From Alphaproteobacteria bacterium (GTDB taxonomy: Bacteria > Pseudomonadota > Alphaproteobacteria > CALKHQ01), in contig JBHJOG010000207.1 in the NCBI GenBank assembly GCA_050329975.1, forward strand, positions 7,211 through 71,210: a stretch of DNA of 64,000 nucleotides, in the 5' to 3' direction. Position numbers and translations under genes: made by a program. Under the pieces are notes generated by a model, which saw only the letters and a list, made by a program, of their open reading frames with translations, was not told where the DNA came from and made no database searches. Numbering within the stretch: position 1 is the stretch's first letter; the number at the start of each line of letters is the position of its first letter. This document shows positions 448-58,320 of the stretch, piece by piece.

Positions 448-811
448 CAGGTTTCCTCCAGGAAGTTTATTCTCGTTCGGGAGCCTCAGATTAAGCGCCG
501 TCGACCTTGGCGGTCAATCGAGTACGGGTTCATTTGTATGACGAAACCAATCTGCGTCGGTCCTCCGATATGGCCAAGTGTTGACTCGATTCACGGCCGG
601 CCCAGCCCCAGATTGAATGAGAGGGTGCACAGGACCCATCGTCGGCAGGCTGGACGGCGCGAAAGAGTAGGGCGTCCCACAACGGATACCCTGTTGCGCT
701 ACCGCCGGCAACAGGAAGCGGAGGCCTCCCGGTCCTCGAGATCGGACTGTGGAAGCCCGGTACTGAAGTATGAGCCACGACCCCATGGCAACCACCAAGG
801 AGCCAATGGCG

Positions 812-1396
812 ATGCAGACTCCCGTTGAGATCGTGTTTCACAAGCTGGAGCGGTCAGAGGCCGTCGAAGCCCGCGTGCGCGAGCGCGTTGAACGGCTGGA
901 GCGTTTCCACCCCCGCATCACGAGTTGCCATGTCTACATCGACGCAGCCCACCGCAACGCGCAGAAGAAGAGCCTGGAGTACCAGGTCCGGGTGGAGGTC
1001 CGGGTGCCGGGAACCGAACTGGCGGTCAGCAGCAAGCCGGGCGACGTCAACGCGCATGGCGACGTCTACATCGCCATCCGCGACACCTTCGTGGCCATGG
1101 AGCGGCAGCTGAAGCGCAGCCGTCGGCAGACGACCGGCGAGGTGAAGACGCATCTGTCGCCGTTGCAGGGCACGGTAGCAGAGCTCCATCCGGATCGCGA
1201 CCACGGCCAGATCGCGACCACGGACGGCCGCCTCGTCTATTTCCACCGCAACAGCGTGGTCAACGGCGGCTTCGACGCGCTGAGCGAGGGCGCGACGGTC
1301 GAACTGTCCATCCAGCACGACGAAAGCGACAAGGGTCCGCAGGCGAGCACCGTTCGCCAGATCGGCCCGATGCGGTTCGTCGACGAGCCACGCTGA
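812..1396 (+). CDS. hpf: Ribosome hibernation factor (HPF/RaiA/YfiA family) with C-terminal cold-shock-like OB domain
   Basis: MQTPVEIVFHKLERSEAVEARVRERVERLERFHPRITSCHVYI...DVYIAIRDTFVAMERQLKR matches the HPF/S30AE fold pattern. The C-terminal GTVAELHPDRDHGQIATTDGRLVYFHRNSVVNGGFDALSEGATVELSI...KGPQASTV follows the CSD pattern (G.V..F....G.GFI...G..VFFH..S.....F..L.EG..VEF). An AAGGAG Shine-Dalgarno lies 9 nt before the ATG at 812; the track start at 770 was rejected. Confidence 0.7.
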   Translation: MQTPVEIVFHKLERSEAVEARVRERVERLERFHPRITSCHVYIDAAHRNAQKKSLEYQVRVEVRVPGTELAVSSKPGDVNAHGDVYIAIRDTFVAMERQLKRSRRQTTGEVKTHLSPLQGTVAELHPDRDHGQIATTDGRLVYFHRNSVVNGGFDALSEGATVELSIQHDESDKGPQASTVRQIGPMRFVDEPR

Positions 1397-1423: not shown

Positions 1424-2308
1424 CTACGCGTCGTCACGGTGAGCCGACCAGGCGAACCGCGCGAGGTACAGATCCGGCGACGCGGCGTGGGCGCGCATCG
1501 CGGCCGCGAGCGTGGCCGGATCGGCGCCGGAAAGGATACCGGTCCTTACCAGCGCGGCGGCAAAGCCCGCGCGCTTGGCGCCGGCGATGTCGTGCTCGAT
1601 GCTGTCGCCGATCCCGATGGTTCGGGCCGGCGGCGGCAGCGGTCCCAGGCGGGCGGCTTCCTCCAGCGCGACGCGGTAGATCTCCGTGAACGGCTTGCCG
1701 ATCCGGGTTACCGGGCCGCCGAGTTCGGCGTAGAGGTCGGCGATCCGACCGGGGCCGAATCCGCTGCCCTCGGCCAGTACCATGACCTTGTCCGGGTTTG
1801 TGCACAGGCAGGGAAGCCCACGGGCCGCTGCCGGCGCCAGCAACGCGCGGTAGTCGTCGAGCGGCCGGATGTCGCCATCGCTGCCGGCCAGCAGCACGAA
1901 ATCGGCATCGTCGGCAGCAGCGACCATCGCAAGGGGCAGGCCCGCGACCGCCGACTCGTCGCCGCGCCGGTTGACCAGCAGGCATCGCAACGGTTGCGCC
2001 GTTGTGGCCACCGGCAGCTGGCCACCGGCGATCTGCCGCCAGGCGACCTCGCCCGAGCAGAGACAAACATCGTAGCAGGCCCGATCGAAGCCGAGCGCCG
2101 CCAGCCGCGCCTCGTTGCTGGCCGCGCGACGACCCGAATTGGAGAGCAGGATCACGGTCTTGCCTGCTGCCTTGAGTTCGTGCAGCGCCGCGACGGCACC
2201 AGGATAGGCGGCCGACCCATCGTGCAGCACGCCGAACTGATCGACCAGGAACAGGTCGTAGTGCTCGACGATTGCGGAAAGTCCGTCCGCTGTCGTGATG
2301 GCGGGCAT
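1424..2308 (-). CDS. HAD-superfamily subfamily IIA hydrolase (phosphatase)
   Basis: MPAITTADGLSAIVEHYDLFLVDQFGVLHDG...ILLSNSGRRAASNEARLAALGF...IGIGDSIEHDIAGAKRAGFAAALVRTGI shows the HAD motifs (DxxGVLxDG; C-terminal GDxxxxDI). The track ORF 1424..2902 carries a 197-aa Arg-rich N-terminal extension, which I rejected. Confidence 0.75.
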   Translation of the reverse strand: MPAITTADGLSAIVEHYDLFLVDQFGVLHDGSAAYPGAVAALHELKAAGKTVILLSNSGRRAASNEARLAALGFDRACYDVCLCSGEVAWRQIAGGQLPVATTAQPLRCLLVNRRGDESAVAGLPLAMVAAADDADFVLLAGSDGDIRPLDDYRALLAPAAARGLPCLCTNPDKVMVLAEGSGFGPGRIADLYAELGGPVTRIGKPFTEIYRVALEEAARLGPLPPPARTIGIGDSIEHDIAGAKRAGFAAALVRTGILSGADPATLAAAMRAHAASPDLYLARFAWSAHRDDA

Positions 2309-2328
2309 GGTCGTCCCGCTTCGAGGCG

Positions 2329-3384
2329 TCAGCACGGGTTCATCAGCGGTTCGCCGGCGATGAAGCGGCGGATCTCCTCGGCGATCTGCTCGGCGGTATG
2401 GGTCACGGTGCGCACCGAGGCGCCCGCAATGTGCGGCGTGAGCGTGACGTTCGGCAGCTTGAGCAGCGGCCAGTCGGCCGGCGGCGGCTCGATCGCGAAG
2501 GTCTCCAGCATGGCGCCGCCCAGGTGGTTGCTCGCCAGCGCGTCGTAGAGCGCGTCGTAGTCGACCATCGGACCGCGGGCGGTGTTGACGAAGATGGCGC
2601 CCGGCTTCATCGCGGCCAAGGCCGCGGCGTCGATGAAGCCGGTGGTTTCCGGCGTTACCCGGGCGTGGAGGGTGACCACGTCGGACCTGGCGAGCAGGGC
2701 GGCGCGGTCGACATGCTCGACACCGGCCCGCGCATCGTCGGCGCTGAGCTGGACATAGGGATCGGCGACGAGGATCCGGCAGCCGAACGCGCGCAGCAGC
2801 CGCACCACCCGGGTGCCGACCGCGCCGTAACCGATGACGCCGACCGTGAGCTCGTTCAACTCGCGGCCGGTGCGGTCGGTGCGGTAGAGGTCGCCGCGCC
2901 ACTCGCCCTGGCGCAGCGCTTCGTGGCCTGCGCGGATCAGCCGGGTCTCGGCCAGGATGGCGCCGATGGTGAACTCGGCGACCGCGCTGGCGTTGCGGCC
3001 GGGCACGTTGACGACGCGGATGTTTCGGGCGCGGGCGGCGGCCATGTCGATGTTGACCGGGCCGCCGCGCGAGACGGCGACCAGCTGCAGCGCCGGCAGC
3101 CGGGCCATCATGCCGTCGGCGAGGGGCGACAGATGGGTGACGAAGATCTCGGCCTCGCCGATGAAATCCACCACCGCTTCGGGGTCGCCCATGTATTCCT
3201 TCAGCCCCCCAAGCTCTGGATGGGCGAGGCCCGGGCGGGCGTAGCCATGCTCCATCACCTCGTCGGGCCAGGGCAGCTCATCGGTCCGGATCAGGTGGCC
3301 GGGGCCGCAGGCGGCTTCGATCGCCTGACGGAACGTGTCTGAGAGCATGAACCGGTCACCGATGATGGCGATATGTCTAGGCAT
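2329..3384 (-). CDS. D-isomer-specific 2-hydroxyacid dehydrogenase, NAD-binding
   Basis: It has a GVIGYGAVG Rossmann motif and the family's catalytic region (...TLHARVTPETTGFIDAAALAAMKPGAIFVNTARGPMVDYDAL...). The ATG at 3382-3384 overlaps the upstream kinase stop by 8 nt. Confidence 0.85.
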   Translation of the reverse strand: MPRHIAIIGDRFMLSDTFRQAIEAACGPGHLIRTDELPWPDEVMEHGYARPGLAHPELGGLKEYMGDPEAVVDFIGEAEIFVTHLSPLADGMMARLPALQLVAVSRGGPVNIDMAAARARNIRVVNVPGRNASAVAEFTIGAILAETRLIRAGHEALRQGEWRGDLYRTDRTGRELNELTVGVIGYGAVGTRVVRLLRAFGCRILVADPYVQLSADDARAGVEHVDRAALLARSDVVTLHARVTPETTGFIDAAALAAMKPGAIFVNTARGPMVDYDALYDALASNHLGGAMLETFAIEPPPADWPLLKLPNVTLTPHIAGASVRTVTHTAEQIAEEIRRFIAGEPLMNPC

Positions 3385-4939
3385 CCGCTGCTCCGCGCGC
3401 CTCGGCCAACTGCCGCCAGATCGGGATCATCGCGCGCTGGGCCCCGACATAAGCCGGATAGAGCCGGGCGTAGACCTCGGTCAGCGCAGGGTCCGGCGGC
3501 TCCAGCGCTCCGAGCCACGGGCCGACCCAGGCATCGGCGCAGGCGGCCATATCCGGATAGACGCCGAGGCAGACCGCCGCCATCATCGCTGCCCCGGCCG
3601 CGCCCGCTTCCTCGCGGCCGCCGCCCCGGACCGAAGCGCCCACCGCGGCGCCGATGATCTGACGCAAGGCGACGCTGCGGGCAGCACCGCCGGAGACGCG
3701 GATTTCTCCGGGCAGCGGGCCCATTGCGCCGTAGCAATTGCGCGCGGCGAGCGCCAAGCCTTCGAACACCGCACGCATCAGGTCGGCGTAGCGATGGCCG
3801 CTGTCCAGTCCGACGAACCCGGCGCGCGCATGCGGGTCGACGAAGGGGCCGCGTTCGCCAGCGTCCGAGATATGGGGCTGGTAGAGGATGCGGCCCGGCG
3901 CCGCGCCCAGCACCAGGTCGTCTATGCCGATGAGCTGGTCGGCGCGGCTGCGCCTCACACCGGCCGACGCGAGCACGTCGACCGCGAGGTCCAGCAGCCA
4001 ATCGATGTTCAGGGTGGCCGCCATGTTGGACTGGAGCTGGGCATAGAAGCCGGGGACGGGGAACTTCATCGTCCAGCCGGTACTGTCCGGATTGAGGCGG
4101 ACTTTGTCCGCGCCGTCCACCAGCGCGACATGTAATCCGGTCGAGCCGATTATGGTGAGCCCGGTCGAGCAGTCCGGGTCGTACAGACCGCCGCCAACGC
4201 AGGTGCAGAGCGCATCCACATAGGCCAGGACGACCGGCGTGCCGGCAGGTATTCCGATCTCGGCGGCGGCGCGTTCGCTCAGCGGGTCGTACTGGCGGGT
4301 TCCGTCGACGATTTCGGGCAGCAGGCCGCGGCGGTGGCTGAGACCGAGCAGTCGGACCACCTCGTCGCTGTAGGCAAGCGTGCGGTAGGAGCCGAAGGTG
4401 AACAGGCCCTCGGTCGGGTCGGTGGCGCGCCGGCCGGTCATCAGGAAGTACAGCCAGTCCTTGCAATGGAAAGCGGTAGCCGAGCGGTCGAGCAGGCCAG
4501 GCATGGTCTCGTCCATATAGGCGAGCTGGGCGCCCATCTGGCAGGCGGCGAAGCCGGTGCCCGTGATCAAGAACCGCTCGCGGTCTTCGGGCAGCGCGCG
4601 GCGGCGATCGGCCAGCGCGGCAGCCCGCGCGTCGAGCCAGAGCCAGCCCGGCGCTGTGGGTGTCCCGGCGTCGTCGATCAGCCAGGTCCCGTCGCCCTGG
4701 CCGGTGACCGCGATCGCCAGAGTGCGGCGGCCGAGGTCGGGGACCGACTCCGCCAGCCGGCGGAGCACAGCGGCGGTCTTGGTCCAGGTTTCCGCGGGAT
4801 CCTGCTCGTAGCCGCCATCGCCGACCCGCTGGTAGACATTCGGTTCGGCGGCGACGCCCAGTTGGCGGCCGTCGTCGGCGAAGGCGACTGCCTTGATCAC
4901 CGAAGTGCCGGCATCGATCCCGACGATGATGTCCGCCAT
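3377..4939 (-). CDS. FGGY-family carbohydrate kinase
   Basis: MADIIVGIDAGTSVIKAVAF is the FGGY N-terminal ATPase motif. A GGGAGGA Shine-Dalgarno lies 9 nt upstream of the ATG at 4937-4939; the track start at 4978 was rejected. It is probably co-transcribed with the dehydrogenase and HAD hydrolase. Confidence 0.85.
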   Translation of the reverse strand: MADIIVGIDAGTSVIKAVAFADDGRQLGVAAEPNVYQRVGDGGYEQDPAETWTKTAAVLRRLAESVPDLGRRTLAIAVTGQGDGTWLIDDAGTPTAPGWLWLDARAAALADRRRALPEDRERFLITGTGFAACQMGAQLAYMDETMPGLLDRSATAFHCKDWLYFLMTGRRATDPTEGLFTFGSYRTLAYSDEVVRLLGLSHRRGLLPEIVDGTRQYDPLSERAAAEIGIPAGTPVVLAYVDALCTCVGGGLYDPDCSTGLTIIGSTGLHVALVDGADKVRLNPDSTGWTMKFPVPGFYAQLQSNMAATLNIDWLLDLAVDVLASAGVRRSRADQLIGIDDLVLGAAPGRILYQPHISDAGERGPFVDPHARAGFVGLDSGHRYADLMRAVFEGLALAARNCYGAMGPLPGEIRVSGGAARSVALRQIIGAAVGASVRGGGREEAGAAGAAMMAAVCLGVYPDMAACADAWVGPWLGALEPPDPALTEVYARLYPAYVGAQRAMIPIWRQLAEARGAADA

Positions 4940-5087
4940 GCGCGGCGCGTCCTCCCGACTGTCGAATCCCATCTTCAACGCGGCACAGATGTGCCCTGCC
5001 GATGCCGCCAGCGCAACGGATCCTTAACCACGCCGCGGCGATAAGCGAGGAATCGAGTGCGGAAATCCGCGACAGACTGGACGCCTC

Positions 5088-6857
5088 ATGGACGGCTCGA
5101 CTGCGACGTCACCTGAACTCTGCGCGCCCGACAGACCGGCACGCATGACTCCAGCCGCGCCCTGCGGCTGTCTGCTGATCATCCCGAGCGCGCGGCTGGC
5201 CCCGGCGGAACTCCAGGCCGAACTGGGGCCGATCCCGAGTGGTATGGTGCCTTATCGCGGCCGCCCCGCCTATGCCCATATCATCGGTCAGGTCGGTGCG
5301 CGAGCGGATGCGGTTGCGATCGCGGTGGGCGACAGCGGTGCGCTGCTCGCCGAGCACGCCGGCCACGCCTTCGGATCCACAGCCCAGTGCGTCGATGTCG
5401 GTCCGACTACCAGCCTGGGCGCCACCATCAGTGCCGTGCTCGACGACTGGTGCGCCAGCGGGCTCGCCTTGCCGACACGCCTGCGGATTCAGTTCGCCGA
5501 CACGCTGATCGATGTGCCTGGCGCCGAGCCGGCGGATTCGACCGTGATCTACCATGGGCAGGCAGCCGACCTCTACCGCTGGACCTGCTTCACGGTCGAC
5601 GAGGCGGGAGCCATCGAGCGCTTCATCGAGAAGGATGCCGACAAGGCCGGCGAGGACGTCTACGGCGTGGTTATCGGCGCCTTCGCAATCGCCGACGTCG
5701 CCGGGTTTCACCGGCGCCTGCGCGCGGCCTGCGACACGACGACTGCTGTCGATCCGTTCTATGCCGCACTGCGCGAGCACTTCAACGCCGCCCCGGCTGC
5801 ACGGCGTGCGTTGCGCCCGGTGCGGCGCTGGACGGACTTGGGGCACCTGGACACCTATTACGCCGCCCGGCGCCAGGCCGGCATGAATGCCCGCGCGTTC
5901 AACGCGCTCGACGTGCGCGACCGGCGGGGGGTAATCCGCAAGACCAGCGCCAACCGGAGCAAGCTCGCCGACGAGATCCGCTGGTACCTGCGCCTGCCGA
6001 AGACGCTGGCTCATCTCGCCCCGCGGGTCCTCGACTACGACCTCGATCCGCAAGATCCGTTCGTCGAGATGGAGTTCTACGGCTACCCGGCGCTGTCGGA
6101 CATGTACCTCTACGGCGCCCATGACGGTGGAGTCTGGGAACGGGTGATGGCCGCGCTGGGCGACGCCCTGGACCTGATGGGCAGCCATCGCCTGGTCCCC
6201 GGCGATCCGCGCGACCTGACGACGGCCTTGCGGTCGGTCTACCAGGAAAAGACGGCCGACCGGATCGCTGGCCTGCCCGAACAGGGGGTCCGGAGCCTGT
6301 TCGCCCGGGACGTCGTCACCATCAATGGCCTGCGCCGTCCGGGGCTCGCGGCGATGATCGGTCTGCTGCCCCGGCTCGCCGATGCGGTCGGGCTTTACGA
6401 CTGCCCGCATTTCACCGTGATCCACGGCGACTTCTGCCTGTCCAACCTGCTGTTCGACCGGCGCAACTGCTTCCTGCGCTGCATCGACCCGCGCGGCCGG
6501 TTCGGCGGCTATGACATCTACGGCGATCCGCACTACGACCTCGCCAAGCTGCGGCACAGCTTCGTCGGCGGCTATGATTTCATGGTCAACGGCCTGGTCC
6601 GGGTCGATGCCGACGATGGCGGCGACGTGCGCTACACCCTGCTGCGGCAGCCGCGGCACCGCGCGATCGAGCGCCAGTTCGCCCGCTGGCTCGCCCGGCG
6701 CTGCCCGGACACGCTGGCGCGGATCGGCCTGATCGAGAGCCTGCTGTTCATCAGCATGACCCCGCTGCACGCGGACCGTCCCGACGCTCAGATCGCGATG
6801 ATGGCTACCGGCCTCGACCAGTTCGGCCGGCTGGCGCAGGAGGCTGGCCTGGGATGA
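5088..6857 (+). CDS. Bifunctional protein: N-terminal sugar-phosphate nucleotidyltransferase-like domain fused to C-terminal APH/choline-kinase-like phosphotransferase domain
   Basis: The N-terminal half has ...IERFIEKDADKAGEDVYGVVIGAFAIAD (the NTP-transferase v..F.EKP....y.n.G.Y pattern). The C-terminal half has VIHGDFCLSNLLFD (APH/ChoK catalytic HGDxxxxN) and DIYGDPHYDLA (the DxxxD-like motif). The start is ambiguous between M1 at 5088 and M20 at 5145. Confidence 0.65.
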   Translation: MDGSTATSPELCAPDRPARMTPAAPCGCLLIIPSARLAPAELQAELGPIPSGMVPYRGRPAYAHIIGQVGARADAVAIAVGDSGALLAEHAGHAFGSTAQCVDVGPTTSLGATISAVLDDWCASGLALPTRLRIQFADTLIDVPGAEPADSTVIYHGQAADLYRWTCFTVDEAGAIERFIEKDADKAGEDVYGVVIGAFAIADVAGFHRRLRAACDTTTAVDPFYAALREHFNAAPAARRALRPVRRWTDLGHLDTYYAARRQAGMNARAFNALDVRDRRGVIRKTSANRSKLADEIRWYLRLPKTLAHLAPRVLDYDLDPQDPFVEMEFYGYPALSDMYLYGAHDGGVWERVMAALGDALDLMGSHRLVPGDPRDLTTALRSVYQEKTADRIAGLPEQGVRSLFARDVVTINGLRRPGLAAMIGLLPRLADAVGLYDCPHFTVIHGDFCLSNLLFDRRNCFLRCIDPRGRFGGYDIYGDPHYDLAKLRHSFVGGYDFMVNGLVRVDADDGGDVRYTLLRQPRHRAIERQFARWLARRCPDTLARIGLIESLLFISMTPLHADRPDAQIAMMATGLDQFGRLAQEAGLG

Positions 6858-7600
6858 GCACGACCGTCGTCGTCACCATGGCCGGCGAGGGCCGCCGCTT
6901 CCGCGACGCGGGCTACACAGTTCCGAAGTTTGCCGTCGCGGTGCACGGGCGCACGTTGCTCGACTGGTCGCTGACGAGCCTGCAGCGTTTCGCCGCCATG
7001 GGCACGCGGGCAATCTTCGTCGCACGCGCCGAGGAAGATCCGGTGGCGGCCATCGCGCGCGCCTGCGCCGCTGTCGGTTTCGCCAACTGGTCGGTTGTGA
7101 TGCTGGACAGGCCGACCGACGGCCAGGCGACGACCGTGCTCGCAGCCGAACCGGCCCTTGCCGATCCTGCCGACCGGCTGCTGGTGTGGAACGTCGACAC
7201 GCTGGTCTGGCCGGACGCCCTGGACCCTGCCGACTTTGCCGGCGACGGCTGGCTGCCATGTTTCCCGGGGCTCGGTGACGCCTGGAGCTTCGCCCGCGCC
7301 GATTCGTCGGGGTTGGTCGCGGAGGTGCGCGAGAAGCGGCGGATCTCCGGCGACGCCACCATCGGGCTCTACGGGTTCGCCAGCTGGCAGGCGTTTCGCG
7401 ACGCCTATGCCGACACCTACGCCGCCAGCGTGCCGCGCGAGGCGGGCGAGTGCTACGTGGCTCCGATCTACAACGCGATGATCGCCGCGGGCAAGGACGT
7501 GCGCCTGAGCCGGCTGCCCGCACACGCTGTGGTGCCGCTGGGGACGCCGGCCGACGTCGCGGCCTTCGCCGCCGCTGAGCCGGTCGTGGCCGCTGCATGA
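6854..7600 (+). CDS. MobA-like / sugar-phosphate nucleotidyltransferase family protein
   Basis: VVVTMAGEGRRFRDAGYTVPKFAVAVHGRTLLDWSL is an NTP-transferase N-terminal glycine-rich motif. The ATGA overlap with the upstream gene stop suggests translational coupling. Confidence 0.65.
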   Translation: MSTTVVVTMAGEGRRFRDAGYTVPKFAVAVHGRTLLDWSLTSLQRFAAMGTRAIFVARAEEDPVAAIARACAAVGFANWSVVMLDRPTDGQATTVLAAEPALADPADRLLVWNVDTLVWPDALDPADFAGDGWLPCFPGLGDAWSFARADSSGLVAEVREKRRISGDATIGLYGFASWQAFRDAYADTYAASVPREAGECYVAPIYNAMIAAGKDVRLSRLPAHAVVPLGTPADVAAFAAAEPVVAAA

Positions 7601-8793
7601 CCCTGCCGATCATCCTGCTCAAGGGACTGTCGCAGTACGGCGCGTTGCGGCTGCATGTCGAGCAGCTCGCCGCCGCGCTGCGGGCCCGCGGGCAGGAGGT
7701 GTTCGTCTTCGATCACGCCCAGGAGACCTCGGATCGGCTGGTTGCCGCGCTCAACGCGGGCTGCCGGGCGGTCGTCTCCTTCAATGGGGTCGGGCTCGAC
7801 ATGCTGGTCGAGGACAGGCCGTTCTACGACGTGGTCGGGGTGCCGCTGGTGACGATGATCGTCGACCACCCGGCCCACCACGCCCAGCGGCTGGCTGCAG
7901 CCGGGACCCGCGTGGTGATCAATGTGATCGACCGCAGCCACCTGGCCTGGCTTGCCGATGTGTTCGGCCGCGACCGCTTTCAGATCACCGGCCTGCTGCC
8001 GCCGGGCGGCAATGTGGACGCGCCCCCCGAGGACAACGACGTCGACTCGTTCCTGGCCCGGCGCGACATCGCGCTGCTGTTCACGGGCACCTACCGCGGC
8101 GTCCCCGAGCGCCAATGGTCGAAGCTGGGCAGCCCCTTCGTCCGTGGCGTCCTGGATGCCGCCGCCGACCTCTGCCTCGCGCATGACATGCTGCCGGTCG
8201 AAGAGGCCCTGCAGCAGGCGCTGGCCAGTCACGACGTGCAGGTGTCCGGCGAAACCCGGCGCCGGTTCTGGCGGCTGGCCGCGTCGCTCACCGACTTCGT
8301 GCATGGACTGCGCCGCCACCAGGCGCTGAGCGCGATCGGCGAAGCGGGCCTGCCGCTCAGCCTGTACGGCCGCGATTGGGACCCCTATCTCGAGGCCCAT
8401 CCGCACGTGGCCTACGGCGGTGAGGGCAGCTTCGAGGAAACGCTGCAGCACCTGAAGCGCACCCGGATCTGCCTCAACACCAACACAAATTTCGTCGCCG
8501 GCGCCCACGAGCGCGTGTTCGCCGCCCAGTGCGCGGGTGCCGCCGTGTGCACCGACGCCAGCCGCTACTACCAGGACATGTACCGGGACGGCGTGGACAT
8601 CATGCTCTACCGTTGGACCCGGCTTGCGGAACTGCCCGGTTTGATCGGCTCCTATCTGAACGACCCGCCCCGCCTGGCCGGGCTCGCCTTCGCCGGCAGG
8701 GCAACCGCCGAGGCACACCACGGCTGGGAGAGCCGCGCCGATACCCTGCTCGGTCAGATCGACATCTACTACGGATTCGGCCGCTGCGCCTGA
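7597..8793 (+). CDS. Hypothetical protein, GT-B glycosyltransferase-like (CgeB/DUF3880-like C-terminal region)
   Basis: It overlaps the upstream stop by ATGA. The N-terminal part looks like a Rossmann fold (ILLKGLSQYGALRLHVEQLAAALRARGQEVFVFD). The C-terminal TRICLNTNTNFVAGAHERVFAAQCAGAAVCTD resembles the GT1/CgeB C-terminal signature. The frame has high GC3. Confidence 0.5.
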   Translation: MTLPIILLKGLSQYGALRLHVEQLAAALRARGQEVFVFDHAQETSDRLVAALNAGCRAVVSFNGVGLDMLVEDRPFYDVVGVPLVTMIVDHPAHHAQRLAAAGTRVVINVIDRSHLAWLADVFGRDRFQITGLLPPGGNVDAPPEDNDVDSFLARRDIALLFTGTYRGVPERQWSKLGSPFVRGVLDAAADLCLAHDMLPVEEALQQALASHDVQVSGETRRRFWRLAASLTDFVHGLRRHQALSAIGEAGLPLSLYGRDWDPYLEAHPHVAYGGEGSFEETLQHLKRTRICLNTNTNFVAGAHERVFAAQCAGAAVCTDASRYYQDMYRDGVDIMLYRWTRLAELPGLIGSYLNDPPRLAGLAFAGRATAEAHHGWESRADTLLGQIDIYYGFGRCA

Positions 8794-8885: not shown

Positions 8886-9323
8886 CTATTGGAACACGGC
8901 CCGGGAGACGCGATAATTGTCGGCTGGATCCATGGCGCTGGAGGAGATGTCCATTGTGTCCGTATAGAGCGTTATGGTCGTGATCCTGGGGTTCTCAGTA
9001 TAGAGTATGAGGGAGGTCTCGTCGGCGCGCGCAGACCATTGGACGGGCGCCGCGGTCGTGGGATACGGACCCTCCCAGGTGCTTGCTTCGATCTTTCGGA
9101 AGGTGCCGACCAACTGCTCGCTCGGACCCCTCACCAGATCGAAGCTTATGAGGTGAAGCCCGTCCATCTGCGTCGCGGCGACTGGTGCCGCAGCCGGCGC
9201 CGCAGCCGGCGCCGCAGCCTGCTGCGGTGGCTGATCGTTACGGTCTCCGTCGGACCGGCAGCCGGTCACGGCCAGCATCACGACAAGAATCAGGCCGGAG
9301 AACCTTGCGACAGAAGCGGTCAT
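8886..9323 (-). CDS. Lipoprotein of unknown function
   Basis: MTASVARFSGLILVVMLAVTGC has an LAVTGC lipobox. An AAGGAG Shine-Dalgarno lies 7 nt upstream. Local GC is clearly lower than in the surroundings. The 39-aa upstream extension in the track was rejected. Confidence 0.55.
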   Translation of the reverse strand: MTASVARFSGLILVVMLAVTGCRSDGDRNDQPPQQAAAPAAAPAAAPVAATQMDGLHLISFDLVRGPSEQLVGTFRKIEASTWEGPYPTTAAPVQWSARADETSLILYTENPRITTITLYTDTMDISSSAMDPADNYRVSRAVFQ

Positions 9324-9532: not shown

Positions 9533-10327
9533 ATGCAACTCACCGCCGACCAGCTGGAGACCTTCGACCGCGACGGCTGGCTTCTGCTCGAGGATATGTT
9601 CTCGGCGCCCGAGGTCGCGCTGCTGAAGCGCGAGGCCGCCCGGGTCTATGCCCTCGACCGCCCGGAGGTATTCCGGGAGAAGGACGGCAAGACCGCCCGG
9701 ACCGCCTTCGCCGCCCATACCTACAATGAGGCGTTCCGCCGTCTGGGCCGCCATCCGCGGCTGGTCGAGCCGGTGAAGCAACTCCTCGGCGGCGACGTCT
9801 ACATCCACCAGTACAAGCTGAACGCCAAGGCCGCTTTCGGCGGCGACGTCTGGCAATGGCACCAGGACTACGGCACCTGGGCCCGGGACGACGACATGCC
9901 CGAGGCGCGGGCCATGAACATAGCGCTGTTCCTGGATCCGGTGACCGAGTTCAACGGCCCGCTGATGTTCATCCCGGGTTCCCACAAGCAGGGCGTGATC
10001 GAGGCCGGCCACGACGTCGCCACCACCTCGTACCCGCTGTGGACGCTCGACCAGGACACCATCCGCCGGCTGGTCGCCGAGGGCGGCATCGTCGCGCCAA
10101 AGGGGGCCCCGGGGACGGTACTGATGTTCCATTCGACCCTGGTCCATGGCAGCTCCAGCAACATGTCCCCCTTCGACCGGTCGATCGTCTATCTGAGCCT
10201 GTGCCGGGTCGACAATCACATCCGGCGATTCTCGCGCCCGGAATGGATCGCCCACCGCGATTTCACGCCCATCGAATGCCTGCCGGACGATTGCCTGGCC
10301 CCGCTGCTGGGCGAGAAGGCAGCCTGA
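9533..10327 (+). CDS. Fe(II)/2-oxoglutarate-dependent dioxygenase of the phytanoyl-CoA dioxygenase (PhyH) family, ectoine-hydroxylase-like
   Basis: WQWHQDYGTWARDDDMP resembles the EctD signature F-x-W-H-S-D-F-E-T-W-H-x-E-D-G-M/L-P. A downstream ...HGSSSN... has the second His. An AGGAGG Shine-Dalgarno precedes the ATG. Confidence 0.75.
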   Translation: MQLTADQLETFDRDGWLLLEDMFSAPEVALLKREAARVYALDRPEVFREKDGKTARTAFAAHTYNEAFRRLGRHPRLVEPVKQLLGGDVYIHQYKLNAKAAFGGDVWQWHQDYGTWARDDDMPEARAMNIALFLDPVTEFNGPLMFIPGSHKQGVIEAGHDVATTSYPLWTLDQDTIRRLVAEGGIVAPKGAPGTVLMFHSTLVHGSSSNMSPFDRSIVYLSLCRVDNHIRRFSRPEWIAHRDFTPIECLPDDCLAPLLGEKAA

Positions 10328-10345
10328 TCGCAAAGGACAAGCCAC

Positions 10346-11698
10346 ATGAATTTGCACGCCCTCATGGCCGCCCGTGCCGACCGTCCCGTCCGGGTCGGGC
10401 TCATCGGTGCCGGCAAGTTCGGCGCCATGTTCCTGGCCCAGGTACCGTTCATGCCGGGCCTGCATGTGGCCGCGATCGCCGACCTGCGGCCGGACGGCGT
10501 GCGCGCGCGGCTGAAGGCGGTCGGCTGGGACGAGGCGCGCGGCCAGGCTGCGGACCTGGACGCCGCGCTGGCCACCGGCGGGACCTGGATCGGCGACGAC
10601 GCTATGGCGATGATCGCGTCCGAACCGATCGAGATCGTGATCGACGCCACCGGCGACCCAGCTTCCGGCATCGCTCACGCGCTCGCCTGCTTCGAACACG
10701 GCAAGCACCTGATCATGGTCAATGTGGAGGCGGACGCGCTGGCCGGGCCGCTGCTGGCGGAGCGGGCACGGCAGGCGGGGGTGCTCTACTCGCTCGCCTA
10801 TGGCGACCAGCCGGCGCTGATCTGCGAGCAGGTGGACTGGGCGCGGGCCTGCGGCATGCGCGTGGTGGCGGCTGGCAAGGGCACCCGCTACCGGCCGGAA
10901 TTCCACGGCTCCACCCCCGACACGGTCTGGGGCTATTACGGGCTGACGCCGGAGCAGGCCCAGGCGGCCGGCATGAACCCGAAGATGTTCAACTCCTTTC
11001 TCGACGGCACCAAGTCGGGCATCGAGATGGCGGCGGTGGCCAACGCCACCGGGCTGACCCCCAGCCCCGGCGGGCTGAAGTTCCAGCCCTGCGGTGTGCA
11101 TGACATCGCGCGGATGCTGCGGCCAGCGGAGGTGGGCGGCATCCTGCACCATGCCGGCCAGGTCGAGGTGATCTCCAGCGACGAATTCGACGGCCGCGCG
11201 GTGGTGGGCGACCTGCGCTGGGGCGTCTATGTGGTGATCGAGGGCCCAAGCGACTACGCCGCCCGCTGCTTCGGGGAGTACGGCATGATCACCGATCCGA
11301 CGGGCCGCTACACGGCGCTCTGGCGCCCCTACCACATGATCGGGCTCGAGCTCGGCGTCTCTGTCGCCAGCATCGCCGCCCGCGGCGAGGCGACGGGCGC
11401 GGCGCGGCAGTGGCTGGGCGATGTGGTGGCGACCGCCAAGCGCGACCTCGCACCGGGCGAAGAGCTGGATGGGGAGGGCGGCTACACCGTCTGGGGCCGG
11501 CTCTATCCGGCGGAGCGGTCGCTGGCCATCGGCGGCCTGCCGATCGGGCTGGCCGACAGGGCGCGGCTGCTGCATCCGGTCCAGGCCGGCCAGCCGGTCC
11601 GCTGGTCCGATGTGGCGCTGGACGCGGAGCAGCCGGCGGTCGCCCTGCGCCGCGAGATGGAGCGCGCCTACGCGCCGCAGGCGGACGCGGCGGAGTAA
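10346..11698 (+). CDS. NAD(P)-binding oxidoreductase, predicted homoserine-dehydrogenase-like (COG4091 type) with C-terminal SAF domain
   Basis: VRVGLIGAGKFGAMFL is a Rossmann GxGxxG. The C-terminal LAIGGLPIGLADRARLLHPVQAGQPVRWSDVAL is SAF-like. This is a family-level call only. Confidence 0.6.
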   Translation: MNLHALMAARADRPVRVGLIGAGKFGAMFLAQVPFMPGLHVAAIADLRPDGVRARLKAVGWDEARGQAADLDAALATGGTWIGDDAMAMIASEPIEIVIDATGDPASGIAHALACFEHGKHLIMVNVEADALAGPLLAERARQAGVLYSLAYGDQPALICEQVDWARACGMRVVAAGKGTRYRPEFHGSTPDTVWGYYGLTPEQAQAAGMNPKMFNSFLDGTKSGIEMAAVANATGLTPSPGGLKFQPCGVHDIARMLRPAEVGGILHHAGQVEVISSDEFDGRAVVGDLRWGVYVVIEGPSDYAARCFGEYGMITDPTGRYTALWRPYHMIGLELGVSVASIAARGEATGAARQWLGDVVATAKRDLAPGEELDGEGGYTVWGRLYPAERSLAIGGLPIGLADRARLLHPVQAGQPVRWSDVALDAEQPAVALRREMERAYAPQADAAE

Positions 11699-11770: not shown

Positions 11771-12121
11771 ATGGGCAAGCCGCAACACGAGGCCGGGGCA
11801 GAACGCATGCCGGTCACTGTCATCAACGTATTCACGCCGAGGCCGGGAAGACTCGAGGACCTCGTCGCCGTGCAGCAGGCTGCGCTGCCGGGATTCCGCG
11901 GCCGGGTCCCGGGGTTGCTAGGCAGCCGCTTCTACCGGGCGCTGGACGGGCGGAACGCGGTGCTGGTCAGCGTGTTCGAGACGCCGGACGACTTTCAGCA
12001 GTTCCGCGGGTCCGATCTGTTCGCCGCTCATCGCGACCGGATCTCGCCCCTGCTGGAGGGAACGAACCCGGGGCTCTACGAACTGGTGTACGAGGCAGGG
12101 GAGGGTGCGGCTGCCGGCTGA
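11771..12121 (+). CDS. Antibiotic-biosynthesis-monooxygenase (ABM) domain protein
   Basis: PVTVINVFTPRPGRLEDLVAVQQAALPGFRGRVPGLLGSRFYRALDGRNAVLVSVFETPDDFQQF fits the ABM ferredoxin-like pattern. A GGAGGA Shine-Dalgarno lies 9 nt upstream. Confidence 0.6.
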   Translation: MGKPQHEAGAERMPVTVINVFTPRPGRLEDLVAVQQAALPGFRGRVPGLLGSRFYRALDGRNAVLVSVFETPDDFQQFRGSDLFAAHRDRISPLLEGTNPGLYELVYEAGEGAAAG

Positions 12122-14263: not shown

Positions 14264-15679
14264 TCAGTTCCCGTCGGCAGGTGGCCAGTGTCCCTCCGCC
14301 TTGGCTGCGACAGCCGCCGCAAGCGCCGTCCGCGCCCTGGCGAACACCTCTGCCCATTCCCCCGGCACCTGCTGGCGGAACAGCCGCATCGAGGGGTACC
14401 AGGGGGTCCGATCGCTGTCGACCGGGTAGATCCAGTAAGGATGGTAGGGCAGCAGGTTCCAGACCGGGCGGCCGAGAGAACCGCACAGGTGGGCAACCGA
14501 ACTGTCGGTCATGATCACCAGGTCGAGCATCTCGATCGCGGCGGCGGTCTCGGCGAAGTCGTCCACACGGGTCCCGATATCGAGAATCACAGCATCGGCG
14601 CCCGAGGCGACGAGGTCGCCCTCGCGCGGACCCTTCTGCAGGCTGTAGAGCTGGACGCCGGGCACGGTCCCGAGCGGCAGGAACTGCTCGAGGGAGACCG
14701 CCCGCTTCGCGTTGCCCTTGAAGGTGACGCTGCCGGACCAGACGATGCCGACCTTGAAGCGGTCGCCGCCCGGGGCGATCAGAGGGGCGACGCGCGCGCG
14801 CGCTGCTTCCGGCACGGTCAGCGCCACGGGGGCGCCCGGCGCCATCACGTCGGCGCCGAGGATCCGCGGCAGCGTCATCAGCGAGCAATGGGTGTCGAAG
14901 GCCTCAAACCGCTCCTCGGATGCGACCAGCCGGGAGACGCCGGGACACCCCTGGAGCAGCCGGCGCAGCGGGGGCTTGCATTCCAGGACGACGACCGCCT
15001 CCTGCTCCACCAGCTGCGGCAGGAAGCGCAGCGCCATCAGCGTGTCGCCGTAGCCCTGTTCGGGATGCAGGTAGATGGTCTTGCCCGCCAACGGCTCGCC
15101 GTTCCATTCCGGCTGGGGATAGCTGCGCGGCTTGACCTCGCCGGTCTGCCGACGGGCCTCGTAGTCGCGCCAGCCATCGCGGCTGCGTCCGAGGTGAAGC
15201 AGGATCAGGGACCGGTCCCAGCGATAGGTCGGGTTGTCGGGCTTGCGGGCGACGAGGGTGTCCAGTTGGGTCAGCGCCTCCTCGAACCGCGTCGCCTCGC
15301 GCAGGGCAACCGCGTAGTTGTGTCGGCCGCGGTCGTCGTCGGGATCGCGGGCGACCACCGCCTGCTGCAGCGCGAGCGCCTCGTCGAGACGGTCCATGTC
15401 TTTCAGCACGTTGCCGAGGTTGCCCATCGCCGCCACGTCGTCCGGCGCCAGCTCCAGCGCCCGGCGATAGCAGATCTCGGCGGCCGCAAACGCCTTCCGC
15501 TCGCGCAGCGCCACGCCGAGGTTGCACCAGATGCCGCTGTCCTGCGGCCGCACGGCGAGGTAGCGGCGGTAGAGCGGGATCGCCTGCTCGGTCCTACCGC
15601 CCTGGTGCAGCCGGATGGCGTCGGCGCGGACGGCAGCCAGGGGATCGGCCCCACCGGCAGCCGCCCCATTGTCCTTCAT
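14264..15679 (-). CDS. TPR-repeat protein fused to glycosyltransferase family 9 (heptosyltransferase-like) domain; FlmG-like candidate flagellin glycosyltransferase
   Basis: The N-terminal ~180 aa hold four or more TPR repeats (e.g. AIPLYRRYLAVRPQDSGIWCNLGVAL; AEICYRRALELAPDDVAAMGNLGNVL). The C-terminal region has GT9 motifs (KVGIVWSGSVTFKGNAKRAVS; DSSVAHLCGSLGRPVWNLL). Confidence 0.75.
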   Translation of the reverse strand: MKDNGAAAGGADPLAAVRADAIRLHQGGRTEQAIPLYRRYLAVRPQDSGIWCNLGVALRERKAFAAAEICYRRALELAPDDVAAMGNLGNVLKDMDRLDEALALQQAVVARDPDDDRGRHNYAVALREATRFEEALTQLDTLVARKPDNPTYRWDRSLILLHLGRSRDGWRDYEARRQTGEVKPRSYPQPEWNGEPLAGKTIYLHPEQGYGDTLMALRFLPQLVEQEAVVVLECKPPLRRLLQGCPGVSRLVASEERFEAFDTHCSLMTLPRILGADVMAPGAPVALTVPEAARARVAPLIAPGGDRFKVGIVWSGSVTFKGNAKRAVSLEQFLPLGTVPGVQLYSLQKGPREGDLVASGADAVILDIGTRVDDFAETAAAIEMLDLVIMTDSSVAHLCGSLGRPVWNLLPYHPYWIYPVDSDRTPWYPSMRLFRQQVPGEWAEVFARARTALAAAVAAKAEGHWPPADGN

Positions 15680-58199: not shown

Positions 58200-58320
58200 T
58201 TCATCCTCCGGTGTCGCCATGCGCTGCTGACATTCTGCAGCGCGTTGGTGTTCAGCTTTCTGCTCCGGTTGGCGTCGCAACCGGACAGGTCGTCACGGCA
58301 TTGCCGCAACAGGTTCGGTA

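What the first reader, a model, noticed from the sequence alone, without database searches (positions are those of the whole stretch)
5088..8793. Translationally coupled three-gene operon: nucleotidyltransferase-APH-like kinase fusion, second nucleotidyltransferase, GT-B-like protein
Three ORFs are joined by ATGA overlaps. The first combines a sugar-1-phosphate nucleotidyltransferase-like N-terminal half (IERFIEKDADKAGEDVYGVVIGAF) with an APH/choline-kinase-like C-terminal half (VIHGDFCLSNLLFD). This is the same two-activity logic as LicC+LicA (CDP-choline) or MurU+AmgK (UDP-MurNAc), but in one chain. The second ORF is another MobA-like nucleotidyltransferase. The third is a CgeB/GT1-like protein. 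Together they look like a kinase, then nucleotidyl activation, then transfer pathway for an unknown small molecule or sugar. They could decorate a surface glycan, possibly the flagellin glycan or LPS. I cannot assign the substrate.
Basis: partly seen in the sequence, partly recalled or inferred. Interest (0 to 1): 0.6.

Follow-up and report, generated by a model that had tools for sequence, protein, structure and literature searches.

The report
KfoE-type sugar-activation operon with private glycosyltransferase
This three-gene operon is a distant relative of the E. coli K4 kfoE genes needed to put fructose branches on a capsule; it most likely phosphorylates a sugar, links it to a nucleotide and transfers it, and so points to the still-unknown donor for such sugars.

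Summary
Three real genes (5088-6857, 6854-7600, 7597-8793, + strand) are joined by ATGA overlaps.

- **ORF1** is a nucleotidyltransferase (NT)-fold domain fused to an intact APH/methylthioribose-kinase-like kinase. The NT-fold domain has lost the GxGxR loop and catalytic lysine in every relative examined, so ORF1 is probably not a LicCA- or AmgK+MurU-type bifunctional enzyme.
- **ORF2** is the canonical NT. It sits beside the ORF1 homologue in 79 of 83 loci across Bacteria and Archaea, and is fused to it in two proteins.
- **A third partner** occurs in 75 of 80 loci: a BcbF-type HAD phosphatase (TIGR01689). It is missing here.
- **ORF3** is a GT4-like GT-B glycosyltransferase. It accompanies the pair only in some Alphaproteobacteria.

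ORF1 is a full-length homologue of E. coli K4 KfoE. Published kfoE deletion primers flank that gene exactly, and the deletion removes the capsule's fructose branch.

Best reading: kinase, then NT, then transferase, making and using a nucleotide-activated sugar. The sugar is probably fructofuranose. It, the nucleotide and the acceptor are inferred, not shown.

This is a new variant of a genetically known but biochemically undescribed module: no phosphatase, its own transferase, and no surrounding glycan locus.

The parts
5088..6857 (+). ORF1, KfoE-family protein (589 aa; alternative start at 5145): an NT-fold domain fused to an APH-like kinase
   Evidence: Full-length homologue of E. coli K4 KfoE: 24% identity over 557 aa, E 3e-47. 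Of the 51 columns invariant in its own clade, 43 are also at least 90% conserved in the KfoE clade.
5166..5879 (+). ORF1 N-terminal domain (about aa 27-264): sugar-nucleotidyltransferase fold without the NTP-binding signature
5895..6845 (+). ORF1 C-terminal domain (about aa 270-586): small-molecule kinase of the APH/ELK fold with a complete catalytic set
6854..7600 (+). ORF2, canonical sugar-phosphate nucleotidyltransferase (248 aa), ATGA-coupled to ORF1
   Evidence: Pfam NTP_transf_3. PDB 4evw at E 3.6e-31 over residues 5-239. The TMAGxGxRF...PK signature, N-x-D-T and LGTP are at least 90% conserved in 84 family members. It lies next to the ORF1 homologue in 79 of 83 loci and is fused to it in P0320 and P0363.
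7597..8793 (+). ORF3, GT-B (GT4-like) glycosyltransferase (398 aa), ATGA-coupled to ORF2
   Evidence: Pfam Glyco_trans_1_2 at 1.5e-16. AF2 pLDDT 90.6. Foldseek matches tetrahydrobiopterin glucosyltransferase, PimB', HepE, sucrose-phosphate synthase, BshA and MshA (E 1e-9 to 1e-7). It sits with the ORF1/ORF2 pair in the window, L090, L091, L016, L021, L093 and L094.
4979..5087 (.). Intergenic region of 109 bp shared with the divergent FGGY-kinase gene; presumed promoter region of the operon
   Evidence: No sigma-70-like site or Rfam match was found. This is an inferred role only.

Best explanation
The operon makes a nucleotide-activated sugar and transfers it.

**Step 1.** The C-terminal kinase of ORF1 phosphorylates a sugar hydroxyl, most likely the anomeric one. 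By homology with E. coli K4 KfoE the sugar is most likely D-fructofuranose, phosphorylated at O-2. The substrate would be free fructose or fructose-6-phosphate.

**Step 2.** ORF2, a complete nucleotidyltransferase, condenses the sugar phosphate with an NTP to give an NDP-sugar.

**Role of the NT-fold domain.** It keeps the sugar-phosphate/Mg2+ side of the active site but not the NTP loop. It probably acts as a non-catalytic partner that binds the sugar phosphate or docks ORF2, much as GMPPA or KONJAC serve their catalytic paralogues.

**Step 3.** ORF3, a GT4-like GT-B enzyme, transfers the sugar to an unidentified acceptor.

**The missing phosphatase.** In most relatives a BcbF-type HAD phosphatase completes the set. 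That gives the same kinase/phosphatase/NT logic as the GDP-heptose pathway: Fru-6-P, then Fru-2,6-P2, then Fru-2-P, then NDP-Fru. This lineage lacks the phosphatase. It therefore either starts from the free sugar, borrows another phosphatase, or keeps the extra phosphate.

**Shown:** the folds, the catalytic-residue status, the co-conservation, the fusions, and the homology to kfoE.

**Inferred:** every chemical step, the sugar, the nucleotide and the acceptor.
For: - **Kinase.** The catalytic set is intact and invariant. Its closest folds include sugar anomeric kinases: methylthioribose kinase and maltokinase.
- **NT-fold domain.** The fold is confirmed, but GxGxR and the PK lysine are absent family-wide. 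The domain is found almost only fused to the kinase: 190 cluster representatives, nearly all 520-590 aa with the match at the N-terminus.
- **ORF2.** The full NT signature is present, with a close solved relative, 4evw. It is adjacent in 79 of 83 loci. Two natural proteins fuse ORF1-like and ORF2-like parts.
- **Phosphatase.** A TIGR01689 'EcbF-BcbF capsule biosynthesis phosphatase' is adjacent in 75 of 80 loci.
- **Glycan context.** Neighbours in other genomes are glycan-assembly genes: GT4, Wzx, Bac_transf, ABC transporter, GT2, WecG and WavE. The trio lies in E. coli capsule and O-antigen loci.
- **Link to kfoE.** The K4-type locus L088 carries the HAD gene, a 522-aa ORF1 homologue and an NT gene. 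Published kfoE deletion primers match exactly on both sides of the 522-aa gene. That deletion yields unfructosylated chondroitin (PMC7925653, PMC8858990).
- **P. multocida.** Type B bcbE and bcbG mutants lose the fructose side chain, and BcbF is the namesake of the HAD family (PMC13552107).
- **Shared core.** 43 of 51 invariant residues are shared between the window's clade and the KfoE clade.
- **ORF3.** It has the GT-B fold and recurs with the pair in seven loci.
Against: - No enzyme of this family has been assayed. I found no paper describing an NDP-fructose or fructose-2-phosphate route.
- Identity to KfoE is only 24%, so the sugar may differ.
- The phosphatase present in 75 of 80 loci is absent from this window and its relatives.
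- The operon is not inside a glycan-assembly locus.
- The literature calls KfoE a fructosyltransferase.
- E. coli O78 carries the trio, yet the FEMS review of E. coli O antigens never mentions fructose.
- A K/R at position 36 in 46 of 62 close relatives could still serve as the loop arginine, so residual NT activity in ORF1 is not excluded.
- The equivalence of BcbG and KfoE rests on gene order and the HAD family name, not on a sequence comparison.
Confidence: 0.6

Rival explanations
1. Same pathway logic (kinase, then NT, then GT), but the sugar in this alphaproteobacterial clade is not fructose. It could be another ketose or an aldose that lacks a mutase route.
For: Identity to KfoE is only 24-26% and to the E. 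coli NTs 28-34%. Eight of 51 invariant positions differ between the clades, including R164 (K/Q in the KfoE clade) and D255 (N in the KfoE clade) in the NT-fold domain. The phosphatase is absent and the transferase is different. The module is present in E. coli O78, for which no fructose is reported.
Against: 43 of 51 invariant residues, spread over both domains, are identical in the two clades. Most members of the window's own clade (A1) keep the BcbF-type phosphatase, like K4.
Confidence: 0.3
2. One reading: ORF1 is a truly bifunctional kinase plus nucleotidyltransferase (LicCA-like or AmgK+MurU-like), and ORF2 is a second NT for another step.
For: The architecture matches: an NT fold followed by an APH-like kinase. 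D138/T139 and the W-x-D-x-G-H motif at the Mg/sugar-phosphate site are invariant. K/R36 is present in 46 of 62 sequences.
Against: The GxGxR loop and PK lysine are missing in all 126 sequences inspected, and the E. coli members have no basic residue in the loop. A canonical NT is an obligatory neighbour and is sometimes fused on as a third domain. There is no Choline_kinase hit, and the MurU model scores 16 bits on ORF2 against a cut-off of 250.
Confidence: 0.15
3. KfoE-type proteins are themselves the glycosyl (fructosyl) transferases, as the K4 literature names them. The NT/GT-A-like domain would transfer the sugar and the kinase-like domain would be regulatory.
For: Deleting kfoE abolishes fructosylation, and KfoE is named a fructosyltransferase (PMC8858990, PMC7925653). 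NT and GT-A folds are related, and PGAP labels the ORF2-type protein 'glycosyltransferase family 2' in some genomes.
Confidence: 0.1
4. The cassette activates a phospho-alcohol head group (choline, ethanolamine, glycerol or similar) as a CDP-alcohol for decorating a glycan, in the manner of LicA/LicC.
Against: There is no Choline_kinase hit on ORF1. No LicB, LicD or phosphotransferase partner is present. The transferase here is a GT-B glycosyltransferase. The genetics in K4 and P. multocida point to a neutral sugar branch, not a phosphodiester.
Confidence: 0.07
5. ORF1 is an aminoglycoside or other antibiotic phosphotransferase, as database names suggest.
For: The annotation reads 'aminoglycoside phosphotransferase family protein'. 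There are weak APH(3') matches over the catalytic loop.
Against: The match covers about 40 residues around HGD...N only (E 0.1) and scores 20 bits against a cut-off of 205. The gene is fused to an NT-fold domain and travels with an NT and a phosphatase in glycan loci.
Confidence: 0.02

Closest known systems
E. coli K4 kfoI(orf3)-kfoE-kfoH and P. multocida bcbE/F/G (fructose branch of fructosylated chondroitin and of type B/E capsules)
   Same: ORF1 is a full-length homologue of KfoE, with the same two domains and 43 of 51 invariant residues shared. ORF2 is homologous to the NT that follows kfoE. Genes are tightly linked and co-oriented.
   Different: Identity is about 24%. No BcbF/KfoI-type phosphatase is present. 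The cassette is not in a kps/O-antigen locus. The associated transferase is an ORF3-type GT-B rather than KfoD/BcbE or WavE. The biochemistry is unknown even for K4, where KfoE is labelled a fructosyltransferase.
GDP-D-glycero-D-manno-heptose pathway (HddA/HldE kinase, GmhB HAD phosphatase, HddC NT)
   Same: The wider family shares the kinase + HAD phosphatase + NT logic for making a sugar-1-phosphate from a sugar phosphate that has no mutase. HddC is the best sequence-profile hit of ORF1's N-domain.
   Different: The kinase here has the APH fold, not GHMP or PfkB. The phosphatase is HAD-IIIC-like (TIGR01689), not GmhB. No isomerase is present. This is an analogy of logic, not homology of the pathway.
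AmgK/MurU and LicA/LicC (including LicCA fusions)
   Different: In those systems the NT partner or domain is catalytic. Here the fused NT-fold domain has lost the NTP loop and a separate NT is required. No family-specific HMM is met.
Catalytically impaired NT-fold partners: GMPPA with GMPPB, KONJAC with VTC1, eIF2B gamma/epsilon
   Same: An NT-fold protein or domain without full catalytic signature accompanies an active paralogue. These complexes appear among the structural matches (7d72, 8yre, 5b04, 6caj).
   Different: No interaction between ORF1 and ORF2 has been shown; it is inferred only from adjacency and natural fusions.
Anomeric sugar kinases of the APH fold (5-methylthioribose kinase, maltokinase) and fructosamine-3-kinase
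   Different: Identity is no more than 18%. None of them carries an N-terminal NT-fold domain.
Retaining GT4 GT-B glycosyltransferases (BshA, MshA, PimB', sucrose-phosphate synthase, tetrahydrobiopterin glucosyltransferase)
   Same: ORF3 has the two-Rossmann GT-B fold and the Glyco_trans_1_2 C-terminal half.
   Different: Identity is 9-16%. The N-half has no Pfam match. The family is small (35 proteins). Donor and acceptor are unknown.

Membership tests
KfoE/BcbG-type module (fructose-branch genes of K4 and P. multocida B/E capsules) | Full-length homology to KfoE: NT-fold domain plus APH-like kinase, about 520-590 aa | tested here: met
   BLASTP of ORF1 against the K4 522-aa protein gives 24% identity over 557 aa, E 3.5e-47. 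43 of 51 invariant columns are shared. The identity of that gene as kfoE was confirmed by exact matches of the published deletion primers.
KfoE/BcbG-type module | An adjacent 4evw-type nucleotidyltransferase | tested here: met
   ORF2 overlaps ORF1 by ATGA. Its homologue is adjacent in 79 of 83 loci. It shows 28-34% identity to the E. coli partners.
KfoE/BcbG-type module | An adjacent TIGR01689 (EcbF-BcbF) HAD phosphatase | tested here: not met
   It is present in 75 of 80 other loci. tblastn and a family HMM over six frames find none in the 64-kb window, nor in L090, L091, L021, L010, L030 or L069. It could lie elsewhere in the genome.
KfoE/BcbG-type module | Location in a capsule, O-antigen or EPS assembly locus | tested here: not met
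   The window's neighbours are an FGGY kinase, a 2-hydroxyacid dehydrogenase, a HAD, a lipoprotein, PhyH and a DRL oxidoreductase. L021 and L093 are also stand-alone.
KfoE/BcbG-type module | Required for a fructofuranose branch on the product | not testable with these tools
   Known only from K4 kfoE and P. multocida bcbE/bcbG mutants in the literature.
LicA/LicC (CDP-choline), LicCA fusion | Choline_kinase (PF01633) signature in the kinase half | tested here: not met
   Pfam reports only APH PF01636, E 1e-6.
LicA/LicC (CDP-choline), LicCA fusion | A catalytic NT domain with GxGxR and the conserved lysine | tested here: not met
   The loop reads P-S-A-[KR]-L and the lysine position is S/T/P. 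The E. coli members have no basic residue there.
LicA/LicC (CDP-choline), LicCA fusion | LicB permease or LicD phosphocholine transferase in the locus | tested here: not met
   None is among the window's neighbours or the recurrent neighbours in 80 loci.
AmgK/MurU (UDP-MurNAc salvage) | Match to the MurU equivalog NF045761 at its cut-off | tested here: not met
   ORF2 scores 16 bits against a cut-off of 250.
Sugar-1-phosphate nucleotidyltransferase (GT-A-like NT fold) | The fold | tested here: met
Sugar-1-phosphate nucleotidyltransferase (GT-A-like NT fold) | The catalytic signature G-x-G-x-R ... K | tested here: met
   This holds for ORF2 only: TMAGxGxRF...PK is at least 90% conserved. The ORF1 N-domain does not meet it.
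APH / eukaryotic-like small-molecule kinase | Beta3 Lys, alphaC Glu, HxD...N catalytic loop and Mg-binding Asp | tested here: met
   K285, E296, H446/D448/N453 and D467 are invariant in 62 + 64 sequences. Pfam APH scores above its gathering threshold: 29.2 against 23.2 bits.
APH(3') aminoglycoside resistance enzymes | Match to the NCBIfam APH_3p model at its cut-off | tested here: not met
   20.4 bits against a cut-off of 205, covering residues 443-485 only.
GT-B glycosyltransferase (GT4-like) | Two-Rossmann GT-B fold with a Glyco_trans_1 C-terminal half | tested here: met
   AF2 pLDDT is 90.6. Foldseek gives E 7.5e-10 to GT4 enzymes. Pfam PF13524 scores 61 bits.
GT-B glycosyltransferase (GT4-like) | The E-x7-E donor-binding motif | tested here: inconclusive
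   ORF3 has H304-E305-R306-x-F308, invariant in its family. By eye, the usual second Glu position is Ala/Gln. No structural superposition was possible.

The most novel reading that the evidence does not exclude
The KfoE-type trio (APH-fold kinase fused to a degenerate NT domain, a BcbF-type phosphatase, and a 4evw-type NT) may be the missing pathway to a nucleotide-activated ketofuranose: NDP-D-fructofuranose, via fructose-2,6-bisphosphate and fructose-2-phosphate. It would be used across Bacteria and Archaea. KfoE would then have been misnamed a fructosyltransferase. The window's phosphatase-less stand-alone operon, with its own GT-B, would fructosylate something other than a classical polysaccharide, such as a soluble metabolite or a protein like flagellin.
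Probability: 0.3. Interest if true: 0.8.

Novelty: new variant of a known kind. Interest (0 to 1): 0.6.

Why it matters
Fructofuranose branches occur on the E. coli K4 and P. multocida B/E capsules. I found no paper describing how the sugar is activated for transfer. The only gene assigned, kfoE, is called a fructosyltransferase on the strength of a deletion phenotype.

The domain anatomy says otherwise. KfoE-type proteins are kinases welded to a disabled nucleotidyltransferase domain. They always travel with a real nucleotidyltransferase and usually with a phosphatase. That reads as a donor-synthesis pathway, which three purified proteins could test directly.

The module is widespread: 293 of the GTDB species genomes matched, including haloarchaea, Lachnospiraceae, Levilactobacillus and the E. 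coli O78 cluster. Acid-labile ketofuranosides may therefore be under-reported in microbial glycans.

It also bears on chondroitin production strains, which routinely delete kfoE. The window itself adds a variant with no phosphatase and a private GT-B outside any glycan locus, hinting at a non-polysaccharide product.

Tried and rejected
- **BcbF-type phosphatase in the window.** tblastn with 75 family members found nothing at E < 0.01. A family HMM over six-frame ORFs found no hit in the window, L090, L091, L010, L021, L030 or L069.
- **The 131-aa gene upstream in L090/L091.** It looked like a possible HAD but is an unrelated lipoprotein.
- **Other window genes as part of the system.** The PhyH, DRL/SAF oxidoreductase, ABM and PfkB genes downstream, and the FGGY kinase, 2-hydroxyacid dehydrogenase and NagD-like HAD upstream, were all rejected. 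None appears in the 83 loci. The upstream set is absent even from 74%-identical relatives. A convergent gene separates ORF3 from PhyH.
- **Regulatory elements.** No Rfam family reaches threshold in the window. There is no terminator-like site, and only one chance-level promoter-like site.
- **Sequence-only PDB searches.** ORF1 gave only a 40-residue APH match and ORF3 gave nothing useful. Profiles and models were needed.
- **Literature.** 'bcbF/ecbF' alone returned noise. Searches for UDP-, CDP-, GDP- or CMP-fructose, fructose-2-phosphate and ketofuranose nucleotides found nothing relevant.
- **Look-up of P0098.** It failed.
- **Flagellin glycosylation.** This was considered but not supported. 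Flagellins are 48 kb away here. The about 3 kb proximity in Gimibacter is interrupted by two opposite-strand genes.
- **BcbG = KfoE.** I could not verify this by sequence, because no P. multocida sequence was held.

Full report
**1. The observation**

The window is about 68% G+C. ORFs 5088-6857, 6854-7600 and 7597-8793 lie on the + strand, and each junction is a 4-base ATGA overlap. All three show the GC3 of 0.86-0.89 and low GC2 typical of real genes here.

A small lipoprotein gene on the opposite strand (8886-9323) follows ORF3. The transcription unit is therefore these three genes. NCBI's record of the identical protein starts ORF1 at M20 (5145).

**2. ORF1 anatomy**

Pfam sees only an APH domain at residues 280-490 and nothing in the N-half. 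Three further tests place the N-half in the sugar-nucleotidyltransferase fold:
- A profile built from 62 homologues (A1) hits HddC (7.8e-5), GlmU and GalU/YngB in the PDB over profile positions 16-200.
- An AlphaFold2 model (pLDDT 91.9, pTM 0.89) matches NTs with Foldseek.

The signature that binds the NTP is gone, however. Where NTs have G-x-G-x-R the family has P-S-A-[K/R]-L. Where they have the catalytic PK lysine it has S/T/P followed by A/G. The E. coli members have no basic residue in that loop at all.

What stays invariant is F-A-D138-T139 and W248-x-D250-x-G-H253. From my knowledge of RmlA these correspond to its LGDN and WLDTGTHD motifs, the sugar-phosphate/Mg2+ side of the site.

A search of 1.84 billion cluster representatives with this domain alone found 190 proteins. 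Nearly all are 520-590 aa with the match at their N-terminus. The domain therefore exists essentially only as a fusion to this kinase.

**3. ORF2 and ORF3**

ORF2 hits NTP_transf_3. It also matches the solved Vibrio cholerae 'nucleoside-diphosphate-sugar pyrophosphorylase' 4evw (E 3.6e-31). Its family conserves TMAGxGxRF...PK, N-x-D-T and LGTP, which makes it a complete NT.

ORF3 has a Glyco_trans_1_2 C-half. A confident model (pLDDT 90.6) matches GT4-type GT-B enzymes: tetrahydrobiopterin glucosyltransferase, PimB', HepE, sucrose-phosphate synthase, BshA and MshA.

**4. Co-conservation**

ORF1 homologues of 520-600 aa are numerous. A scan of one genome per GTDB species found 293 relatives. 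They span Acidobacteriota, Deltaproteobacteria, Bacillota (Levilactobacillus, Lachnospiraceae, Blautia), Deinococcus, Armatimonadota, haloarchaea, and Odin- and Woesearchaeota.

| Partner gene | Loci where found near the ORF1 homologue |
|---|---|
| ORF2 homologue | 79 of 83 |
| ORF3 homologue | 2 of 83 |
| About 130-aa DxDGT phosphatase | 75 of 80 (directly up- or downstream in 70) |

Most of the loci without an ORF2 homologue are truncated or end-limited contigs.

The small phosphatase scores 137-140 bits on TIGR01689, 'EcbF-BcbF capsule biosynthesis phosphatase'. That is just under the model's 162-bit cut-off.

Two proteins, P0320 (836 aa) and P0363 (797 aa), carry NT-like, kinase and canonical NT domains in one chain.

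Recurrent neighbours elsewhere are GT4, Wzx flippase, Bac_transf, ABC-transporter ATPase, GT2, WecG/TagA, GDP-sugar epimerase and WavE proteins. The trio is thus a cassette that plugs into many glycan loci with varying transferases.

**5. The link to fructose**

Annotated E. coli records carry the trio in five settings:
- a plasmid capsule locus (L084);
- the O78 O-antigen cluster of ETEC H10407, with a WavE protein (L086);
- two kps capsule loci (L087 and L089);
- a K4-type kfo locus (L088).

The L088 gene order is galE/kfoA, kfoB, split kfoC, an IS, a 477-aa gene, a HAD gene, a 522-aa gene, a short ORF, a sugar dehydrogenase and a GT2.

The 522-aa protein aligns with ORF1 end to end (E 3.5e-47). 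The lambda-Red arms published for the kfoE deletion (Badri et al. 2021, Supplementary Table 3) match L088 exactly at 10220-10269 and 11839-11888. These positions bracket that gene. The ORF1 homologue is therefore kfoE.

Deleting kfoE gives unfructosylated chondroitin, which is why the field names KfoE a fructosyltransferase. The ORF after kfoE is an ORF2-type NT, split by a frameshift in this assembly.

In P. multocida type B, bcbE and bcbG mutants lose the fructose side chain. BcbE/F/G had been predicted to add it, and bcbF could not be mutated (PMC13552107). BcbF names the HAD family. That BcbG is the KfoE homologue I infer from gene order only.

Despite about 25% identity, 43 of the 51 columns invariant in the window's clade are at least 90% conserved as the same residue in 64 KfoE-clade sequences. 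This argues for the same chemistry.

**6. Mechanism**

- **Shown:** an intact sugar-type kinase; a disabled NT-fold domain fused to it; an intact NT that is always adjacent and sometimes fused; a phosphatase in most relatives; variable transferases; and genetic necessity of the kinase fusion for a fructofuranose branch in K4.
- **Inferred:** the kinase phosphorylates the anomeric O-2 of fructose or Fru-6-P. The HAD, where present, removes the 6-phosphate. ORF2 makes NDP-fructose. A locus-specific transferase, ORF3 here, uses it.

This mirrors the kinase/phosphatase/NT logic of the GDP-heptose pathway. The fused NT-fold domain may hold the sugar phosphate or dock ORF2, as GMPPA, KONJAC and eIF2B subunits do for their paralogues. 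I found no paper describing such a pathway or an NDP-fructose donor in bacteria.

**7. What is particular to this window**

The window, its 74%-identical relatives (L090, L091), Pseudokordiimonas caeni (L021) and Gimibacter soli (L093) lack the phosphatase within reach. They carry ORF3 directly after ORF2. L016 and L094 have both the phosphatase and ORF3.

The ORF3 family is small, at 35 proteins, and mostly alphaproteobacterial. In Nitrospirillum it stands alone.

No glycan-export or polymerase genes surround the operon. The upstream FGGY kinase, dehydrogenase and HAD genes are not conserved even in close relatives.

In Gimibacter the operon is about 3 kb from three flagellin genes and near neuB. 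In the window the flagellins are 48 kb away. The acceptor is therefore open.

**8. Rivals**

| Rival | Main objection |
|---|---|
| A different sugar | This is the main caveat: low identity, R164 and D255 differ between clades, and O78 has no reported fructose |
| True bifunctional LicCA/AmgK-MurU-type enzyme | The NTP loop is lost and a separate NT is obligatory |
| KfoE as the transferase | The fold matches are to NTs and kinases, the kinase site is invariant, and the neighbouring transferases vary |
| Phospho-alcohol activation | No support from HMMs or context |
| Antibiotic resistance | No support from HMMs or context |

**9. Verdict**

The operon is real, and its broad logic was read correctly. 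ORF1 is better described as a KfoE-family kinase with a degenerate NT domain. ORF2 is the NT. A concrete substrate hypothesis now exists.

It is a new variant (no phosphatase, private GT-B, stand-alone) of a module that is known genetically but not biochemically.

Noticed in passing
window 770-1396 (+): A ribosome hibernation factor domain (Ribosomal_S30AE) is fused to a C-terminal cold-shock domain (CSD) in one 208-aa protein. This is an unusual architecture for HPF-type proteins.
   Followed up: no
window 8886-9323 (-): A small lipoprotein gene (signal peptide ending LAVTGC, with an Ala/Pro-rich linker) is convergent on ORF3 and fills most of the 740-bp gap before the PhyH gene. It marks the 3' end of the operon.
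   Followed up: partly
window 14264-15679 (-): A TPR protein has about 300 C-terminal residues without a Pfam hit. It aligns over 441 aa (24% identity, E 1e-21) with the TPR protein that lies between the flagellin genes and neuB in Gimibacter soli (L093 17288-19021). It is a candidate FlmG-like flagellin glycosyltransferase.
   Followed up: partly
window about 32600-59500: A chemotaxis and flagellar cluster: CheA, CheB, FlhA, a sigma-54 activator, FliG, FliF, FlgE, FlgD, FliK and two flagellins (57372-58280 and 58639-59466, - strand).
   Followed up: partly
window 1424-4978 (-): A divergent operon encodes an FGGY sugar kinase, a D-2-hydroxyacid dehydrogenase and a NagD-like HAD hydrolase. It is absent from the same position in the 74%-identical relatives L090 and L091, so it is probably unrelated to ORF1-3.
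   Followed up: partly
window 9533-11698 (+): A PhyH-family dioxygenase and a DRL-type oxidoreductase with a SAF domain are syntenic with the operon in close relatives only. Their function is unknown.
   Followed up: partly
L086 9001-11728 (E. coli ETEC H10407, O78 O-antigen cluster): The O78 cluster carries the HAD, KfoE-like and NT trio plus a WavE-family gene, all annotated 'hypothetical'. The FEMS review of E. coli O antigens never mentions fructose. An acid-labile substituent on O78 may have been missed.
   Followed up: partly
L088 11835-12538 (E. coli E686, K4-type locus): The NT gene after kfoE is split into two frames and annotated only as a 149-aa hypothetical protein. galE/kfoA and kfoC are also broken in this assembly, so sequencing error is possible.
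   Followed up: partly
P0320 (836 aa), P0363 (797 aa): These natural single-chain proteins contain the NT-like domain, the kinase and a canonical ORF2-type NT.
   Followed up: yes
L085 (Citrobacter plasmid), L086, and 11 Lachnospiraceae loci: WavE-family proteins (PF07507) recur next to the trio. They are candidate transferases for its product.
   Followed up: no
C. jejuni IA3902 capsule insertion (PMC7901785, Table 4): Three adjacent genes of unknown function, of 240, 507 and 132 aa (CJSA_1353-1355), have the sizes expected of NT, KfoE-like and HAD proteins. No sequence was available to check.
   Followed up: no
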